Source: Escherichia phage MikeNSara. Taken from it: a DNA stretch of 50,759 nucleotides. The translations under genes and the position numbers were made by a program. Under the pieces are notes generated by a model, which worked only from the letters and a program-made list of their open reading frames with translations, was not told the origin of the DNA and did no database searches. The stretch lies in sequence record OR896827.1; one strand, written 5' to 3'. Of this stretch, positions 6,191-42,072 are shown piece by piece (within the stretch, counting starts at the first letter, position 1; each line of letters begins with the position of its first letter).

Positions 6191-6209
6191 GTTTAACAAA
6201 AAGTGCTAT
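6191..6209 (-). repeat. 20-bp motif copy in reverse orientation inside late operon
   Basis: GTTTAACAAAAAGTGCTAT on + strand (complement of motif), immediately upstream of terminator 6216..6241; no good -10 at expected position. Confidence 0.5.
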
Positions 6210-9944: not shown

Positions 9945-9964
9945 CTTTTAACAAAAAGTGCTAT
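9945..9964 (-). repeat. 20-bp motif copy in reverse orientation inside late operon
   Basis: CTTTTAACAAAAAGTGCTAT on + strand between major tail terminator and chaperone gene; -10-like TAGATT weak. Confidence 0.5.
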
Positions 9965-15897: not shown

Positions 15898-18800
15898 ATG
15901 GCTAAATATATGATAAGCGGCAGTAAAGGGGGCGGTCAAAAGCCCTACGTGCCAAAAGAGATGGAAGATAACCTGATCTCGATAAACAAGATTAAAGTTT
16001 TGCTGGCTGTATCTGATGGCGAGTGCGATCCAGATTTTACGTTGCGTGATCTTTATCTTGATGATGTTCCGGTTATTGCCAGCGATGGCACTGTTAACTA
16101 CGAGGGAGTTACGGCTGAATATAGGCCAGGTACGCAGACGCAAGATTACATCCAGGGTTTTACTGACACATCAAGTGAGGTTACAGTTGCCAGAGATATT
16201 ACCGGAGACAATCCTTATGTTATTTCTGTTACAAATAAAAACCTATCTGCGGTAAGAATAAAGATCCTGATGCCAGTAGGCATTAAAACAGAGGATAATG
16301 GCGATCTTGTTGGCGTAAGGGTTGAGTATGCCGTAGATATGGCTGTTGATGGCGGTTCTTATAGCGAGGTTATGAGAGATGTAATTGACGGCAAGACAAG
16401 ATCAGGATACGACCGCAGCAGAAGGATTGATCTTCCTAAGTTTGATGAGCGCGTTTTAATCAGGGTTAAGCGACTTACCCCAGACAGCACATCTTCAAAG
16501 GTGACTGATAAAATCAAACTGCAAAGTTACGCTGAGGTTGTGGATGCAAAATTCCGTTATCCTCTGACTGGCCTTGTATTTGTAGAGTTTGACAGCGAAT
16601 TGTTTCCTACACAAATCCCTAACATTTCTATAAAAAAGAAATGGAAGATTATTAATGTGCCAAGCAACTATGATCCAATATCAAGAGAATATCACGGGTC
16701 ATGGGATGGGACTTTTAAAAAAGCGTGGTCAAATAATCCTGCATGGGTTCTTTATGATCTGGTGACTAATCAGCGTTATGGACTTGACCAGCGAGAGTTA
16801 GGAATACAGATCGACAAGTGGAGCTTATACGAGGCAGGCGTTTACTGTGATCAGAAAGTTCCAGACGGTAAGGGCGGTACAGAGCCTCGCTACCTATGCG
16901 ATGTGGTGATCCAGAATCAGGTTGAGGCTTATCAGCTAATCCGTGACATTTGCTCAATCTTTCGCGGAATGAGCTTTTGGAATGGTGAGAGCTTATCAAT
17001 CGTGATTGATAAGCCGCGCGATCCATCATACGTGTTTACTAATGAAAACGTCATCAACGGTGATTTTCAGTACACAACCGCAAGCGAAAAAAGCATGTAC
17101 ACGCAATGTAATGTGACGTTTGACGACGAACAAAACATGTATCAACAGGACGTCGAGGGGGTTTTTGATACTGAGGCGGCATTACGATTTGGATACAATC
17201 CAACAAGCATTACAGCGATCGGGTGTACACGCAGGAGCGAAGCGAATCGTCGAGGTCGGTGGGTTTTGAAAACAAACCTTAGAAGCACTACTGTAAACTT
17301 TGCTACTGGACTGGAGGGGATGATTCCATCCATAGGTGATGTGATTGCTATCGCTGATAATTTTCAGAGCAGCAATCTAACGTTAAATCTTTCGGGCCGA
17401 GTAATGGAAGTTTCAGGCTTGCAAGTTTTCGTTCCGTTTAAAGTTGATGCGCGTCCTGGTGATTTTATTATCATCAATAAGCCGGACGGCAAGCCAGTTA
17501 AGCGAACGATCTCAAAGGTGAGCGCGGACGGAAAAACCATTGAGTTAAATATTGGCTTTGGTTTTGATGTTAAGCCAGACACTGTTTTTGCGATTGACCG
17601 TACTGACCTTGCGTTGCAGCAATACGTTGTGACCACTATCAGCAAGGGAGATGACGAAAACGAGTTTACCTATTCAATCACGGCTGTGGAGTACGATCCG
17701 AACAAATACGACGAGATTGATTATGGCGTAAACATTGATGACAGGCCTACTTCAATTGTTCAGCCTGACGTGATGGCAGCGCCGGAGAATGTTCAGATCT
17801 CATCTTATTCTCGCGTCGTGCAGGGTGTTAGCGTTGAAACTATGGTTGTTTCATGGGATAAGGTTCCTTACGCATCGCTTTATGAAATGCAGTGGCGAAA
17901 AGGTGATGGTAACTGGCTGAATACGCCGCAGACCGCTAACAAAGAGATAGAGGTAGAAGGAATTTATTCAGGCAACTACCAAGTAAGGGTGAGATCCGTT
18001 TCTGCAAGCGGTAACACTTCCCCGTGGTCAAAGATTGCAACAGCTACCCTGACAGGTAAAGTTGGCGAGCCAGGAGCGCCGATTAATCTTACAGCTTCTG
18101 ATAATGAAGTTTTTGGCATTCGTGTTAAATGGGGTATGCCGGAAGGATCAGGAGATACGGCTTACATTGAGCTTCACCAATCGCCAGATGGAACGGTGGA
18201 AAACTCAAGTTTGCTTACGCTGATCCCGTATCCTCAATATGAGTATTGGCATAGCACGTTACCAGCGGGTAAAGTTGTATGGTATAGAATCCGTAGCGTT
18301 GACAGGATCGGCAATGTTTCAGGCTGGACTGACTTTGTTCGTGGCATGGCGTCAGATGATGTTGAATCTGTTTTAGGCGACATTCTTGACAAGATTTTTG
18401 ATACCGAAGCTGGTCAAGAAATCAAAGAGAACGCCATAGACAGTGCCAACAAAATCAAAGACCAAGCGCAATCAATCATCCAGAACGCATTGGCAAATGA
18501 TTCTGATGTTAGAGTTATGAAAAAGGAGAATGGGAAACGGAAAGCTGAATTTAGGCAATCTATACAGATGATTGCTGATGAAACAGAGGCAAGGGTAACA
18601 GCGTTAACGCAATTAAAAGCAGAATTTGATGAGGAGATAACTAGCGAAGTAACAAGACTTGATCAGGCGATCGCAACAGAATCAGAAACGCGAGCAACAG
18701 CTATAGAGGAATTAAAATCACAGATTGGTGATGATATTCAGGGGCAGTTAACGAGAGTTGAGGAAGCGATTGCAAGCGAAACAGAAGCGCGCGTTTCTGC

Positions 18801-19323
18801 CGATACTGCATTAACGGCAAAGTTTGGTGATCTTGAGTCAGCACTTACTGAAAAACTTGATTCATGGGCTGGCGTTGATTCAGTTGGTGCTCAATATTCA
18901 ATGAAGCTGGGCCTAACCTATAACGGTCAGCAGTACAGCGCCGGAATGGTTATGCAGTTAACGCAATCACCGCAAGGATTAATATCACAGATTCTGTTTG
19001 ACGCTAACAGATTCGCGATCATGACAAGTTCTAGCGGAGGGGTATATACGCTTCCTTTCGTGGTTGAGAATAACCAGGTTTTCATCAATAGCTTACTTGT
19101 GAAAGATGGTTCAATAACTAATGCTATGATTGGAAACTTTATTCAGTCAAACAATTTTGTTCAAAATCAGCAAGGTTGGAGGCTTGATAAAAACGGAATA
19201 TTTGAAAACTACGGATCAACTCCAGGAGAGGGAGCTACTAAATTCACCAACGAAGGATTGAAGGTAAAAGATGCAAGCGGAGTATTGAGGGTTGAAGTCG
19301 GAAGGATTACCGGAAGCTGGTAA
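15898..19323 (+). CDS. central tail fibre / host specificity protein (lambda J-like)
   Basis: 1141-aa ORF closing the tail operon; conserved J-like N-terminal region, fibronectin-III-like repeats, divergent C-terminal region; followed by bidirectional terminator. Confidence 0.85.
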   Translation: MAKYMISGSKGGGQKPYVPKEMEDNLISINKIKVLLAVSDGECDPDFTLRDLYLDDVPVIASDGTVNYEGVTAEYRPGTQTQDYIQGFTDTSSEVTVARDITGDNPYVISVTNKNLSAVRIKILMPVGIKTEDNGDLVGVRVEYAVDMAVDGGSYSEVMRDVIDGKTRSGYDRSRRIDLPKFDERVLIRVKRLTPDSTSSKVTDKIKLQSYAEVVDAKFRYPLTGLVFVEFDSELFPTQIPNISIKKKWKIINVPSNYDPISREYHGSWDGTFKKAWSNNPAWVLYDLVTNQRYGLDQRELGIQIDKWSLYEAGVYCDQKVPDGKGGTEPRYLCDVVIQNQVEAYQLIRDICSIFRGMSFWNGESLSIVIDKPRDPSYVFTNENVINGDFQYTTASEKSMYTQCNVTFDDEQNMYQQDVEGVFDTEAALRFGYNPTSITAIGCTRRSEANRRGRWVLKTNLRSTTVNFATGLEGMIPSIGDVIAIADNFQSSNLTLNLSGRVMEVSGLQVFVPFKVDARPGDFIIINKPDGKPVKRTISKVSADGKTIELNIGFGFDVKPDTVFAIDRTDLALQQYVVTTISKGDDENEFTYSITAVEYDPNKYDEIDYGVNIDDRPTSIVQPDVMAAPENVQISSYSRVVQGVSVETMVVSWDKVPYASLYEMQWRKGDGNWLNTPQTANKEIEVEGIYSGNYQVRVRSVSASGNTSPWSKIATATLTGKVGEPGAPINLTASDNEVFGIRVKWGMPEGSGDTAYIELHQSPDGTVENSSLLTLIPYPQYEYWHSTLPAGKVVWYRIRSVDRIGNVSGWTDFVRGMASDDVESVLGDILDKIFDTEAGQEIKENAIDSANKIKDQAQSIIQNALANDSDVRVMKKENGKRKAEFRQSIQMIADETEARVTALTQLKAEFDEEITSEVTRLDQAIATESETRATAIEELKSQIGDDIQGQLTRVEEAIASETEARVSADTALTAKFGDLESALTEKLDSWAGVDSVGAQYSMKLGLTYNGQQYSAGMVMQLTQSPQGLISQILFDANRFAIMTSSSGGVYTLPFVVENNQVFINSLLVKDGSITNAMIGNFIQSNNFVQNQQGWRLDKNGIFENYGSTPGEGATKFTNEGLKVKDASGVLRVEVGRITGSW

Positions 19324-19353
19324 AAAAAAGGGGGCATAGCCCCCTTTAATTTT
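19322..19353. terminator. bidirectional intrinsic terminator between tail operon and convergent minus-strand genes
   Basis: A8-GGGGGC-ATA-GCCCCC-TTT; A-run upstream and T-run downstream. Confidence 0.7.
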
Positions 19354-19966
19354 AATCATAGTGTGATGCATTTATAACCAAAACAGATGAGGCGGTGTAA
19401 ATACCAACAGGTCCAGGGGTTTGTGCAACCTGCCTGGAAAAAGAGTAGATCCCGTTACCATACGCGGCAGCTTGAGACTCAAAAATCATAAATCCACCTA
19501 AAGCCGGATTAGGTACAGAGTTTAACGCTGTTAGTGATGGCATTATTGCGCAAGGGTAGCCCAGGTTAACATCAAACGCGATCCCGCTCACACCAACTTG
19601 CTTTGCATCAAGCGGCCTCATTTTTCCATGATAAACCATTTCACCATGAGCGTTATAAAACGCTATGCCGTGACTACCTGGAGGAGTCACCATGTTACTA
19701 AAAGCATAAACAATAACCTCCCCTTGATTATCAGATCTATCAATTCTTATTGCGTGCCTTCCACCATTGTTAAATTGCGTAAATGATATGTATGATTTAG
19801 CAGTCAATCTAACAAAGAAAAAACATACCCTATCAACAGGAATTGACGAAGTAAAAACGGTTCCGGTATTAGCAGATATTACGGCCCGATCAATTAGATT
19901 AACTGGAGTGAAATCTGGACTTAACCATAACGATCCGTCTGGTTTTTTTATGCTCATCCCGTACAT
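19352..19966 (-). CDS. hypothetical protein (tail-region accessory)
   Basis: Minus-strand ORF converging on J terminator; start moved from TTG 19978 to ATG 19966; N-terminal motif shared with upstream 92-aa ORF. Confidence 0.5.
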   Translation of the reverse strand: MYGMSIKKPDGSLWLSPDFTPVNLIDRAVISANTGTVFTSSIPVDRVCFFFVRLTAKSYISFTQFNNGGRHAIRIDRSDNQGEVIVYAFSNMVTPPGSHGIAFYNAHGEMVYHGKMRPLDAKQVGVSGIAFDVNLGYPCAIMPSLTALNSVPNPALGGFMIFESQAAAYGNGIYSFSRQVAQTPGPVGIYTASSVLVINASHYD

Positions 19967-19968
19967 TA

Positions 19969-20247
19969 TCACCCCCAAAAAGTATATATATATCTTGAAT
20001 CAGATCCAGAAAGTCCACTCCATGTAACGGTGTCGCCACTTACTCCTAAGCTTGGTGCGCCAGGGTCGCCACCGCGCCAGGAATTCATGCCAACATATAT
20101 TGCTTTCAATGATTTACCTGGCGGCCTGTTTTGGTAAGTCTTGCTACCTGATGGCTGAGTGAATTTATCAAGAAAGAAAACAGGCGTTAAAAGTCCTGTA
20201 ACTTCCCTCCCTCGATCGTCATATATTGCATAACCATATTGCGCCAT
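19969..20247 (-). CDS. hypothetical protein
   Basis: RBS GAGGTG; TAATG overlap with lipoprotein gene stop; N-terminal D.G...TPV..LD motif shared with 19352..19966. Confidence 0.5.
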   Translation of the reverse strand: MAQYGYAIYDDRGREVTGLLTPVFFLDKFTQPSGSKTYQNRPPGKSLKAIYVGMNSWRGGDPGAPSLGVSGDTVTWSGLSGSDSRYIYTFWG

Positions 20248-20516
20248 TAATTACACCTCAAATCAATAAATTTACTTTCATTTTGCCAGCGGTTGATAAA
20301 TTTAACTTCTTTATTGTCAACGCTCAACCTGTATTGCTTTTGGCTGAATCTGTTTTCGCGGACTGCATTAATTTTAACTTCATGGAATCCGTTAACAGGG
20401 AATGTTTTAACGTTAAATTTTGCCGTGCAGTCGATCTCATTGAAGTTGCCAGTAGGAGACGCTGCGCACCCGGTCAGAGCGGCTACGGTGGCGATAACTG
20501 CGATTAATTTTTTCAT
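20247..20516 (-). CDS. outer-membrane lipoprotein, Cor-like superinfection exclusion candidate
   Basis: Signal peptide plus lipobox LTGC (MKKLIAVIATVAALTGC); ~89 aa; sits next to the host-specificity gene as cor does in T1/phi80/N15; start moved from TTG 20522 to ATG 20516 with RBS AAGGAG. Confidence 0.55.
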   Translation of the reverse strand: MKKLIAVIATVAALTGCAASPTGNFNEIDCTAKFNVKTFPVNGFHEVKINAVRENRFSQKQYRLSVDNKEVKFINRWQNESKFIDLRCN

Positions 20517-20547
20517 CTTCAATACTCCTTAGTTGTCGTTTCCTGTA

Positions 20548-20590
20548 ACTATACACGATCCGACAAGCGGCGTTTAGCAAAAAGTGCTAC
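20548..20590 (-). promoter_or_regulatory. motif-type promoter cassette (leftward, 19-nt variant) for Cor-like operon
   Basis: GTTTAGCAAAAAGTGCTAC at 20572..20590, 18-bp spacer, -10 TATAGT on minus strand; lipoprotein ATG 20516 downstream. Confidence 0.45.
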
Positions 20591-20689
20591 TTGTTATTTT
20601 TTGTTTTTCGGTGTTATCGAATTTAAGACGGCGTAAATTTAGTGCAAATTTTAGCCAACATAAGGGCAATAAACAATCAATAAAATAGA

Positions 20690-21017
20690 TATATACATAT
20701 AAAATCAATAGTTTATTTATTTATGTATGTATATTTGTTTTTTCTTGTTATCTGTGTTTCTTGTGGTTTTGGTTGTTTGTGGTGATTTTTCTTTATGAGT
20801 ATCTGTATGTGCCATCATTCATGTGTATGTATATAATCCGGCGTATCTGAGAGAACAATGGAACAAGAAAAATAACACATATTAATCATTAACTTACGTG
20901 TCAAATTTGTTTTCTTGCCATCTGAGAACGTTTAGAAAACAGAAAAAACAAAACAACTATTGACTAAATCAACCAAATGGCTACAATGCACAAACAAAGC
21001 AACCAGGAGCATTAAAG
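20690..21017 (+). repeat. AT-rich control region, paralog A
   Basis: Shares ordered blocks with 40960..41298: TTTATTTATTTAT(G/A)T..TGTAT, TTTTGTTATCT, GTATCTGTATGTG, AACAAGAAAAA, TTGAC(T/A) promoter, AACCAGGAG RBS. Confidence 0.6.
20960..20987 (+). promoter_or_regulatory. sigma70-type promoter (TTGACT-16-TACAAT) upstream of recombination module
   Basis: Near-consensus -35 and -10 hexamers with 16-bp spacer, AT-rich upstream region; RBS and ATG 21018 about 30 nt downstream. Confidence 0.6.
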
Positions 21018-29120: not shown

Positions 29121-29539
29121 TGGCTATAACTGATAAAGGCGATTATCTTGAGTTTTACGAAAGGGATCCAACCGACACGAGAAGGGAAGTTAATCACCAG
29201 ATAGATAGTTTTCAGTGGTTGACTTATGCTCATCCTTATTTGCTGGCGTGGCATACGGTAAACGAGAATGAGAAGTCTAAAGCAACGGCGATGATTGATC
29301 AGCAGTCCGGCTTGGTTAAGGGAGTAAGCGATTTCATCATCCTGATTGGTTTAAACGGAAAATACCCCTTTGCAGCGATTGAGATCAAACGAGTGAATAA
29401 ATCAGGCAAGGGGAAAGCATCACCAGTCAGCGATGAACAAAAGGCTTTTTTGCGTCGCGTTCGCAGCTTAGGAGGATTCGCTGCGGTAGCCTACGGATTC
29501 AATCAGTTTAAGTTGGCTATTGAATACATGCTTAAATAG
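29120..29539 (+). CDS. VRR-NUC domain nuclease
   Basis: TAATG overlap with helicase; PD-(D/E)XK core GVSDFIILIG...AIEIK and SDEQKAFL typical of VRR-NUC. Confidence 0.65.
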   Translation: MAITDKGDYLEFYERDPTDTRREVNHQIDSFQWLTYAHPYLLAWHTVNENEKSKATAMIDQQSGLVKGVSDFIILIGLNGKYPFAAIEIKRVNKSGKGKASPVSDEQKAFLRRVRSLGGFAAVAYGFNQFKLAIEYMLK

Positions 29540-29579
29540 CACTTTTTGTTAAAACTGGCGCGATGGATTGCGCCATAAT
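29536..29579 (+). promoter_or_regulatory. motif-type promoter cassette
   Basis: ATAGCACTTTTTGTTAAAAC, 18-bp GC-palindromic spacer, CATAAT; overlaps VRR-NUC stop; Dam ATG 29619 downstream. Confidence 0.55.
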
Positions 29580-40824: not shown

Positions 40825-40959
40825 GTTGCAGGGGAGATAGTGAAACCTCCTCCTCTTGCCTCACTTTTCCGCCTGGCTGTCAGTGGTTGTTATGTTCCGT
40901 TCCCGCCTGTTCTTTTGTTGACCTTCCGCAAAATACGATAACAAAAAATAACAAACAAT

Positions 40960-41298
40960 ACCTATATAATACATTGAAAAATAAGGATTATTTATTTATA
41001 TGTATCTATATATTCTCTTTTGTTATCTTGGTTATTGTGGTATTTGGTGGGGGTATATAGTTTTTGTGTATCTGTATGTGTGTATGGGTATGTAGGGGCA
41101 TATATATCTATATGGCACTTTCCGCGAGAAAACTTCGATAACAGGCAATGATAACATTGATTTATAAGGAAAAATAACGCCTATATTGTTATTGTGCCAC
41201 CATATAAAATTGATAAAACACGCGGGAACAAGAAAAAACAGTTGACACATTAAATAGCATTATTGATAATGCCCACACCTAACAACCAGGAGGCAGAA
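40960..41298 (+). repeat. AT-rich control region, paralog B
   Basis: See paralog A; alternating purine-pyrimidine TG/TA tracts and A-tracts upstream of consensus sigma70 promoter. Confidence 0.6.
41242..41270 (+). promoter_or_regulatory. sigma70-type promoter (TTGACA-17-GATAAT) for rightward early operon
   Basis: Consensus -35, 17-bp spacer, GATAAT -10; A-tract upstream; ATG 41299 about 28 nt downstream. Confidence 0.65.
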
Positions 41299-41763: not shown

Positions 41764-42032
41764 AAAAGGCATTAATCAGTGTTTTGGTGGCAATGGCATT
41801 CCTGACCGGATGTAAAGAAGATGGCGCGCATGTTGGCAATGTGCAGATGGCTAACCCTGGCGATGACTACAACGTAAGGGAGCTATTCACCGCTGACGGA
41901 TGCACTGTTTACCGATTCTATGACGATCGCACTGTTTACTTTACCAACTGCAAGGGCGCGACTAGCTGGGAAGCATCGAAAAGCAATGGCAAAGGCACGA
42001 CAACAGAATATATGACCGTAGAAACAAAATAG
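41760..42032 (+). CDS. putative lipoprotein
   Basis: ATGA overlap; signal peptide with lipobox LTGC (MKKALISVLVAMAFLTGC). Confidence 0.55.
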   Translation: MKKALISVLVAMAFLTGCKEDGAHVGNVQMANPGDDYNVRELFTADGCTVYRFYDDRTVYFTNCKGATSWEASKSNGKGTTTEYMTVETK

Positions 42033-42072
42033 CACTTTTTGTTAAAACGCCAGGCGCAAAGCCTGGCATAAT
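42029..42072 (+). promoter_or_regulatory. motif-type promoter cassette
   Basis: Canonical 20-mer overlapping stop of 41760..42032, palindromic 18-bp spacer, CATAAT. Confidence 0.55.

What the first reader, a model, noticed from the sequence alone, without database searches (positions are those of the whole stretch)
19352..20516. Cor-like lipoprotein module convergent on the host-specificity gene
Three minus-strand genes directly follow the J-like gene behind a bidirectional terminator and have their own motif-type promoter. The promoter-proximal gene encodes a small lipoprotein (LTGC lipobox) in the position where T1, phi80 and N15 carry cor, whose product blocks the FhuA receptor. The two downstream proteins (92 and 205 aa) share an N-terminal motif (D.G...TPV..LD) and may be co-functional.
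Basis: partly seen in the sequence, partly recalled or inferred. Interest (0 to 1): 0.55.

Follow-up and report, generated by a model that had tools for sequence, protein, structure and literature searches.

The report
Phage receptor-binding and self-exclusion gene cassette
The three genes are the known swappable cassette of T1-like coliphages that encodes the tail-tip receptor-binding protein, a small partner and a lipoprotein that probably blocks the same receptor, most likely BtuB and not FhuA, so the finding is real but ordinary.

Summary
Three tightly packed minus-strand genes (89-aa lipoprotein, 92 aa, 204 aa) lie between a bidirectional terminator after the J-like gene and a copy of the phage's recurrent promoter-like motif.

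The window is a Warwickvirus-like T1 relative. Its 92- and 204-aa proteins are 100% identical, and the lipoprotein 98% identical, to those of phage FritzSarasin (Bas04), whose receptor was determined experimentally as BtuB. A same-genus phage that uses FhuA carries a different allele (28-33% identity).

The lipoprotein is Cor-like in layout: lipobox, two invariant cysteines, a C-terminal motif and the same genomic position. It fails NCBI's curated Cor cut-off, and most of its similarity to Cor is signal peptide.

All three proteins fall in the same PHROG families as T1 gp32, gp31 and Cor. This locus type is already described (Maffei 2021; Matusiak 2025). Exclusion by the lipoprotein and the role of the 92-aa protein remain untested.

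The parts
15898..19323 (+). GpJ-like central tail fibre (1141 aa). Context: the presumed docking platform for the cassette's tail-tip proteins.
   Evidence: Pfam FNIII-A_GpJ, Phage-tail_3 and Phage_Tail_Tip; PHROG 31 'central tail fiber J'. The last 60 aa are 53-97% identical in the five other phages compared, whatever their receptor, including a Dhillonvirus whose J is 35% identical overall.
19327..19347 (.). Bidirectional intrinsic-terminator-like hairpin shared by the J operon and the cassette.
   Evidence: AAAGGGGGC-ATA-GCCCCCTTT, 9 bp stem with 6 G-C pairs, T runs on both strands.
19352..19966 (-). 204-aa all-beta protein, the probable BtuB-binding receptor-binding protein at the tail tip (PHROG 425, misnamed 'membrane associated protein').
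19969..20247 (-). 92-aa partner protein (PHROG 557, misnamed 'outer membrane protein'), a probable tail-tip accessory or adaptor.
   Evidence: PHROG 557, E 3.9e-20. Adjacent to and upstream of the large protein in all 88 loci examined. No signal peptide. Shares the N-terminal YG..I...G...TPV motif.
20247..20516 (-). 89-aa outer-membrane lipoprotein, Cor-like in layout, the probable superinfection-exclusion factor for BtuB.
20525..20530 (-). Shine-Dalgarno sequence AAGGAG, 8 nt before the lipoprotein ATG.
   Evidence: Read from the sequence.
20548..20590 (-). Promoter-like region: one copy of the phage's recurrent motif (GTAGCACTTTTTGCTAAA, 20573-20590) followed by TATAGT (20548-20553).
   Evidence: 20 copies of the motif in the window against 0.11 expected. 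Families D1, D2 and D7. Not called by the sigma-70 scan.

Best explanation
This is the BtuB-type 'receptor-binding plus receptor-blocking' cassette of small T1-like siphophages, a self-contained unit of promoter, three genes and terminator.

Inferred mechanism:
1. One transcript starts at the motif-type promoter near 20550-20590 and ends at the hairpin shared with the J operon.
2. The 89-aa product is exported and lipidated at Cys17. With Ala at +2 it is sorted to the inner leaflet of the outer membrane. It probably forms a Cys30-Cys88 disulphide.
3. It then binds the periplasmic face of the TonB-dependent vitamin B12 transporter BtuB, so that the extracellular face is no longer recognised. 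This would protect the infected cell from superinfection and keep progeny from adsorbing to cell debris, as Llp does on FhuA for T5.
4. The 204-aa product is the receptor-binding protein. It caps the C-terminal tip of the GpJ trimer, probably through its disordered N-terminal hairpin motif and its C-terminal strand, and binds the outside of BtuB.
5. The 92-aa product, which carries the same N-terminal motif, is a tail-tip accessory, either an adaptor or an assembly factor.

Shown here: the gene anatomy; identity to phages that need BtuB; fold homology of the 204-aa protein to a solved RBP; family links to T1 gp32, gp31 and Cor; and the cassette boundaries. Inferred: all binding events, the timing of expression and the role of the 92-aa protein.
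For: Receptor. The cassette proteins are 100/100/98% identical to Bas04 and 66/70/54% identical to Bas06, both BtuB-dependent by experiment. A related lipoprotein (53% identity) is in vB_EcoS_PTXU06, which PMC10373560 reports as BtuB-dependent. Same-genus Bas05 uses FhuA, has a J 91% identical, yet its cassette is only 28-33% identical.

Kinship with T1. All three proteins hit the same PHROGs as T1 gp32, gp31 and Cor. hhalign of the large-protein family against T1 gp31 gives E 3.7e-5 over 161 columns.

Module. DNA similarity to Bas05 stops at 19334 and resumes at 20463, which is the signal-peptide codons of the lipoprotein gene.

Against: The BtuB assignment rests on identity to other phages, not on this phage itself. 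Which of the two tail-tip proteins touches BtuB is inferred from fold alone. The big family shows no sequence-level similarity to the Oekolampad RBP. JenP1 and the Stx phages carry the pair without an adjacent lipoprotein, so the three genes are not an obligate trio.
Confidence: 0.8

Rival explanations
1. One reading: a Cor orthologue that blocks FhuA, helped by two co-functional partner proteins encoded downstream.
For: PHROG 1119 'Cor' is the best family hit (E 1e-7). NCBIfam Cor is the top hit. The gene sits where T1 has cor. Full-length hhalign against Cor gives 96.8% probability.
Against: Phages with the identical or related cassette need BtuB, not FhuA. FhuA-dependent relatives carry a clearly different allele. 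The Cor signal is mostly signal peptide, and the NCBIfam score is below the curated cut-off.
Confidence: 0.07
2. The 92-aa and 204-aa proteins are membrane or periplasmic cofactors of the exclusion lipoprotein, as their database names ('outer membrane protein', 'membrane associated protein') and the KanT1 paper suggest.
For: PHROG names. Co-transcription with the lipoprotein. PMC13164509 assumes a role in exclusion for the T1 homologues.
Against: Neither has a signal peptide, lipobox or hydrophobic segment. The larger one is fold-homologous to a solved RBP. In T1, Bas05 and L033 the pair is co-oriented with J, and where a lipoprotein is present (T1, Bas05) it sits on the other strand. The pair occurs without an adjacent lipoprotein in JenP1 and the Stx phages. 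The phi24B homologue is in virions. Others calculated low membrane affinity for relatives.
Confidence: 0.07
3. The lipoprotein does something other than receptor blocking, for example a Bor/Lom-like host-fitness moron or an envelope or lysis accessory, and only the two other genes concern the receptor.
For: No functional data exist for this family. Its fold is a generic small beta-barrel. It is the most divergent of the three among BtuB-type cassettes (54% against 66-70%).
Against: A lipoprotein gene is encoded beside the RBP in every comparable system examined. Blocking has been demonstrated for T5 Llp, BF23 Llp and Rtp45, and T1 Cor is an established exclusion protein; for Oekolampad it is inferred. 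Weak but co-linear similarity to Cor includes both cysteines. The mature part is exchanged together with the RBP.
Confidence: 0.1

Closest known systems
T1 gp32 - gp31 - Cor cassette (also N15 gp22-gp23-cor, HK022, phi80; FhuA type)
   Same: Same three PHROG families (557, 425, 1119). Same position between J and the recE-like gene. Same small-then-large gene order. Same N-terminal motif on both tail-tip proteins. The lipoprotein has a lipobox plus two cysteines.
   Different: Only 24-26% identity for the pair, and 41% over 59 aligned columns for the lipoprotein. In T1 the pair is co-oriented with J and cor is alone on the other strand, whereas here all three form one minus-strand operon. The receptor is FhuA there and BtuB here.
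Oekolampad (Bas18) RBP bas18_0025 with SE lipoprotein bas18_0026; Rtp44/Rtp45 (LptD type)
   Different: The RBP is 321 aa in a single gene with no 92-aa partner. There is no sequence-level similarity. Its SE lipoprotein shows no similarity to ours. The receptor is LptD, which is not a TonB-dependent transporter.
T5 pb5 / Llp and BF23 Hrs / Llp (T5-like phages)
   Same: A receptor-binding gene next to a receptor-blocking lipoprotein gene, inherited as a unit. Llp is a small disulphide-bonded lipoprotein acting from the periplasmic side of a TonB-dependent transporter. BF23 and phiR2-01 also target BtuB.
phi24B gp55/gp54 and 933W L0126/L0127 (short-tailed Stx phages)
   Same: 44% identity for the large protein, the same PHROGs and the same adjacency. 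gp54 was detected in virions and proposed as the tip RBP.
   Different: These are podoviruses with a needle instead of a J fibre. BamA is the presumed receptor. There is no adjacent lipoprotein; lom follows instead.

Membership tests
Cor, phage exclusion lipoprotein (NCBIfam NF047972 / PHROG 1119) | Scores above the curated family cut-off | tested here: not met
   NF047972 gives 18.7 bits against a cut-off of 31; T1 Cor scores 55.8. PHROG 1119 gives E 1e-7 for the full length, but no hit once the signal peptide is removed.
Cor, phage exclusion lipoprotein (NCBIfam NF047972 / PHROG 1119) | Homology of the mature domain | tested here: inconclusive
   hhalign of mature parts gives 11.6% probability over 18 columns. 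The family profile scores Bas05 Cor at 11.8 bits (0 of 1000 shuffles reach it) and T1 Cor at 6.7 bits (2 of 1000). Both cysteines align in Bas05 Cor; in T1 Cor only the C-terminal cysteine is inside the aligned stretch.
Cor, phage exclusion lipoprotein (NCBIfam NF047972 / PHROG 1119) | Lipobox signal peptide and two conserved cysteines in the mature part | tested here: met
   LTGC lipobox; Cys30 and Cys88 are invariant in the family. Cor has Cys25 and Cys73.
Cor, phage exclusion lipoprotein (NCBIfam NF047972 / PHROG 1119) | Excludes FhuA-dependent phages | not testable with these tools
   Indirect evidence points elsewhere: phages with this cassette use BtuB.
T5 Llp-like receptor-blocking lipoprotein (fold) | Small beta-barrel fold similar to Llp (PDB 8A60 chain B) | tested here: inconclusive
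RBPs encoded downstream of gpJ in small siphophages (Oekolampad RBP type) | Fold of the solved RBP | tested here: met
RBPs encoded downstream of gpJ in small siphophages (Oekolampad RBP type) | Encoded directly after gpJ, beside a lipoprotein gene | tested here: met
RBPs encoded downstream of gpJ in small siphophages (Oekolampad RBP type) | The allele follows receptor use, not phage phylogeny | tested here: met
   100% identity to Bas04 (BtuB), 66% to Bas06 (BtuB, another genus), 62% to a Dhillonvirus whose J is 35% identical, and 28% to same-genus Bas05 (FhuA).
RBPs encoded downstream of gpJ in small siphophages (Oekolampad RBP type) | Binds the receptor and is present in the virion | not testable with these tools
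   Only literature on a 44%-identical homologue: phi24B gp54 in the virion proteome.
PHROG 425 / PHROG 557 pair (T1 gp31 / gp32) | Profile match and adjacency, small gene then large gene | tested here: met
   E 1.7e-49 and 3.9e-20. T1 and 933W proteins hit the same families. The two genes are adjacent in all 88 loci examined.
'Outer membrane protein' / 'membrane associated protein' (the database names of those PHROGs) | Signal peptide, lipobox or membrane-spanning segment | tested here: not met
   None is visible in either sequence by inspection; no predictor was run. PMC12309495 calculated low membrane affinity for relatives.

The most novel reading that the evidence does not exclude
The FhuA-, BtuB- and LptD-type tail-tip RBPs of small siphophages, called unrelated families in a 2026 preprint, may be one fold family that docks on a conserved GpJ tip through a shared N-terminal hairpin motif. 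Cor and this BtuB-type lipoprotein may likewise be one two-cysteine family that has been retargeted between TonB-dependent transporters. Whole cassettes would then be exchanged by recombination between the J 3' end or terminator on one side and the conserved signal-peptide codons or promoter on the other.
Probability: 0.5. Interest if true: 0.45.

Novelty: already known. Interest (0 to 1): 0.25.

Why it matters
The cassette decides which outer-membrane protein the phage uses and probably how it shuts that door behind itself. It is therefore the natural handle for predicting or re-engineering host range in T1-like phages.

Practical points from this work:
- The database names ('outer membrane protein', 'membrane associated protein', 'Cor') mislead for this allele.
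- The expected exclusion phenotype concerns BtuB (BF23-like phages, E colicins, vitamin B12 uptake) and not FhuA.
- The fold link between the BtuB-type protein and the solved LptD-type RBP, together with the mapped swap boundaries, gives a concrete design for cassette exchange.

None of this overturns current understanding.

Tried and rejected
- Pfam gave nothing for the three proteins.
- Sequence searches of the PDB with the three proteins and with T1 gp31, gp32 and Cor gave nothing credible.
- I tested whether the 204-aa protein is a tandem duplication of a domain also found in the 92-aa protein. hhalign supports only a 14-column motif, YG.A.Y[DN]..G..V (E 0.002-0.005), and not whole domains. 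The idea is dropped as unproven.
- Sequence-level homology of the large protein to the Oekolampad RBP was not detected. Only the fold matches.
- The sigma-70 consensus scan found no promoter on the minus strand upstream of the lipoprotein gene. The promoter claim rests on the recurrent motif alone.
- Rfam at gathering thresholds gave nothing in the window.
- The PHROG and full-length hhalign 'Cor' hits turned out to be driven mainly by the signal peptide. The DNA comparison explains this: the signal-peptide codons are the conserved flank of the cassette.
Its Ig-like fold is taken from PMC12309495 and was not tested here.

Full report
**What is there.** The window is a complete-looking genome of about 50.8 kb from a T1-like coliphage. 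Positions 19200-20900 are 98.8% identical to phages tiwna, Kalemo and FritzSarasin (Bas04; Drexlerviridae, Tempevirinae, Warwickvirus).

After the 1141-aa GpJ-like gene (15898-19323, +) comes a hairpin at 19327-19347 that looks like a terminator on both strands. Three minus-strand genes follow:
- 20247-20516: 89 aa, MKKLIAVIATVAALTGC..., with a lipobox.
- 19969-20247: 92 aa.
- 19352-19966: 204 aa.

The first two genes overlap by TAATG, and the last two are 2 nt apart, so this is one operon by anatomy. GC skew is negative across 19400-20600, as expected for minus-strand coding.

Upstream lie an AAGGAG ribosome-binding site and a copy (2 mismatches) of an 18-nt motif, ATAGCACTTTTTGTTAAA. That motif occurs 20 times in the window against 0.11 expected. 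Promoter activity itself is inferred: the spacing to the TATAGT box is 21 nt, and the sigma-70 scan does not call it.

**Which receptor.** The 92-aa and 204-aa proteins are 100% identical, and the lipoprotein 98% identical, to those of Bas04. They are 70/66/54% identical to those of Bas06 KarlJaspers, which belongs to another genus but has the same gene layout. The BASEL supplementary table lists BtuB as the experimentally determined terminal receptor of both phages.

Bas05 PeterMerian belongs to the same genus as the window, and its J is 91% identical. It uses FhuA and carries a T1-type cassette that is 33/28/32% identical. A Dhillonvirus (BEK2-2) whose J is only 35% identical carries a cassette that is 68/62/53% identical. 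The cassette therefore follows the receptor and not the phage lineage, as Maffei et al. proposed for these 'bona fide RBP loci'. FhuA is the wrong target.

**The 204-aa protein.** It hits PHROG 425 (E 1.7e-49), which is also the family of T1 gp31 and 933W L0127. hhalign of its family against T1 gp31 is co-linear over 161 columns (E 3.7e-5). It has no signal peptide or hydrophobic segment.

Oekolampad has the same operon logic: SE lipoprotein first, then the RBP, convergent on J. The two RBPs have similar ends: MGAGILIDYNDG... and ...LLVIPNMY against MYGMSIKKPDGS... and ...VLVINASHYD. The phage-proximal part of the Oekolampad RBP is poorly ordered in the cryo-EM map, which fits the disordered N-terminus here.

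Two papers bear on relatives. The homologue in phi24B is 44% identical. By its size and its position after the needle gene it is the 204-aa gp54, which was detected in the virion proteome and proposed to sit at the needle tip. Matusiak et al. modelled relatives as a monomer capping the J trimer. I conclude that this is the tail-tip RBP and that its receptor is BtuB. Binding itself was not tested.

**The 92-aa protein.** It hits PHROG 557 (E 3.9e-20), the family of T1 gp32. It lies directly upstream of the large gene in all 88 loci examined, in siphoviruses and in Stx podoviruses. It is absent from the LptD-type locus.

It shares with the large protein an N-terminal motif, M.YG..I...G......TP[VI]. 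The motif recurs in both T1 and Bas05 proteins and, in weaker form, in the Oekolampad RBP. In the window and T1 genomes, a pattern written after the fact matched 5 of 348 ORFs, and four of the five are these pair proteins.

Profile-profile scores support only the motif, not a shared domain. A similar hairpin-like string...VKDASGVLRVEVG, ends GpJ, whose tail is conserved across receptor types. My reading is that the motif is a docking element and that the 92-aa protein is a tip accessory. This is the least certain part of the model.

**The lipoprotein.** It has Ala at +2, which should send it to the outer membrane. Cys30 and Cys88 are invariant in the 12 close homologues and the 23 distant representatives retrieved. 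The family is small: 25 clusters among 1.84 billion representatives.

The 'Cor' signal needs care:
- PHROG 1119 gives E 1e-7, and full-length hhalign against a Cor alignment gives 96.8% probability.
- Without the signal peptide, hhalign falls to 11.6%, and PHROG 1119 is no longer hit.
- NCBI's curated Cor model gives 18.7 bits against a cut-off of 31.

A profile of the mature family still scores Cor proteins above composition-matched shuffles. Bas05 Cor scores 11.8 bits (0 of 1000 shuffles reach it), aligned end to end with both cysteines. T1 Cor scores 6.7 bits (2 of 1000). The LptD-type SE protein does not score at all.

I file it as Cor-like in architecture and probably in mechanism. It is not a member of the curated Cor family, and its most likely target is BtuB.

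**Why Cor shows up in searches.** DNA similarity to Bas05 is 92% up to position 18698 and 74% over the J 3' end and the terminator (18808-19334). It is absent from 19335 to 20462. It resumes at 20463, which falls in the signal-peptide codons of the lipoprotein gene, and continues through the intergenic region. The exchanged unit is thus the mature lipoprotein plus both tail-tip genes, flanked by conserved sequence on both sides. This fits cassette swapping by homologous recombination. It also explains why the signal peptide is nearly the same in Cor of Bas05 and in BtuB-type lipoproteins.

**Comparison with the known, and verdict.** The closest systems are:
- the T1/N15/HK022/phi80 gp22-gp23-cor cassette: same three families, a different orientation of the pair, FhuA as receptor;
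- the Oekolampad/Rtp RBP plus Rtp45-type SE lipoprotein;
- T5 pb5/Llp and BF23 Hrs/Llp.

The locus type, its link to BtuB and the idea of a cognate exclusion lipoprotein are already published. The finding is therefore already known and of low interest.

- a fold-level link between the BtuB-type protein and a solved LptD-type RBP, two groups that a 2026 preprint calls unrelated families;
- co-membership of the BtuB-type and FhuA-type proteins in the same PHROG families;
- the shared terminal motifs;
- the swap boundaries;
- a correction of the predicted exclusion phenotype from FhuA to BtuB.

Noticed in passing
window, 20 sites, e.g. 6192-6209(-), 9947-9964(-), 29536-29553(+), 42029-42046(+): The 18-nt motif ATAGCACTTTTTGTTAAA occurs 20 times against 0.11 expected. 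Most copies lie upstream of non-structural genes in the gene's orientation. Two copies lie antisense inside the plus-strand structural operon, where the plus strand reads TTGCAC/TTCCAC-N16-TATCAT/TATAAG. The TTGTTA-to-'-10' spacing of 21-22 nt is not canonical, so a phage-specific regulator site is possible.
   Followed up: partly
window 20640-20900 and 40920-41180: The two large divergent intergenic regions share an AT/GT-rich element of about 120 nt (TTATTTATTTAT..TTGTTATCT..TTTGGT..). GC content is about 29% at 20600-21000. Function unknown; no Rfam match.
   Followed up: partly
L003 4720-4998 (933W L0126; likewise phi24B gp55): The Stx-phage homologue of the 92-aa protein is annotated as 75 aa from a GTG start. 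The ORF actually extends to 92 aa and then begins with the conserved MEYGFAIYN... motif, so the start is probably mis-annotated. This is relevant to the report that gp55 was not detected by proteomics.
   Followed up: partly
L040 1259-1492, L049 70-303, L052 1242-1475, L078 and L079 1238-1471: Some Stx-phage-like loci carry a 77-aa Cor-like lipoprotein (32% identical to T1 Cor, both cysteines conserved) about 3.5 kb upstream of the small/large pair, not adjacent to it.
   Followed up: no
L038, L039, L076, L085 (contigs of 106-114 kb); phage PhiR41_1 (108 kb): The small/large pair (39-41% identity) also occurs on contigs of about 100 kb whose nature was not examined.
   Followed up: no
window 19100-19323 (GpJ C-terminus): The last 60 residues of GpJ are 53-97% identical across FhuA-, BtuB-type and Dhillonvirus phages. 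They contain hairpin-like strings (GWRLDKNGIFENYG, VKDASGVLRVEVG) that resemble the N-terminal motif of the cassette's tail-tip proteins.
   Followed up: partly
GenBank MG065643, MG065649, MG065680, MG065681 (hits H41, H136-H139): Records named 'Campylobacter phage' (49,946 bp) carry this cassette at 65% (large protein) and 51% (lipoprotein) identity. That is odd for a BtuB-type coliphage module, and the host label may be wrong.
   Followed up: no
window 20247-20516 compared with 19352-20247: Among BtuB-type cassettes the lipoprotein is the most diverged component (54% identity to Bas06, against 66-70% for the tail-tip proteins), although all are presumed to act on the same receptor.
   Followed up: no
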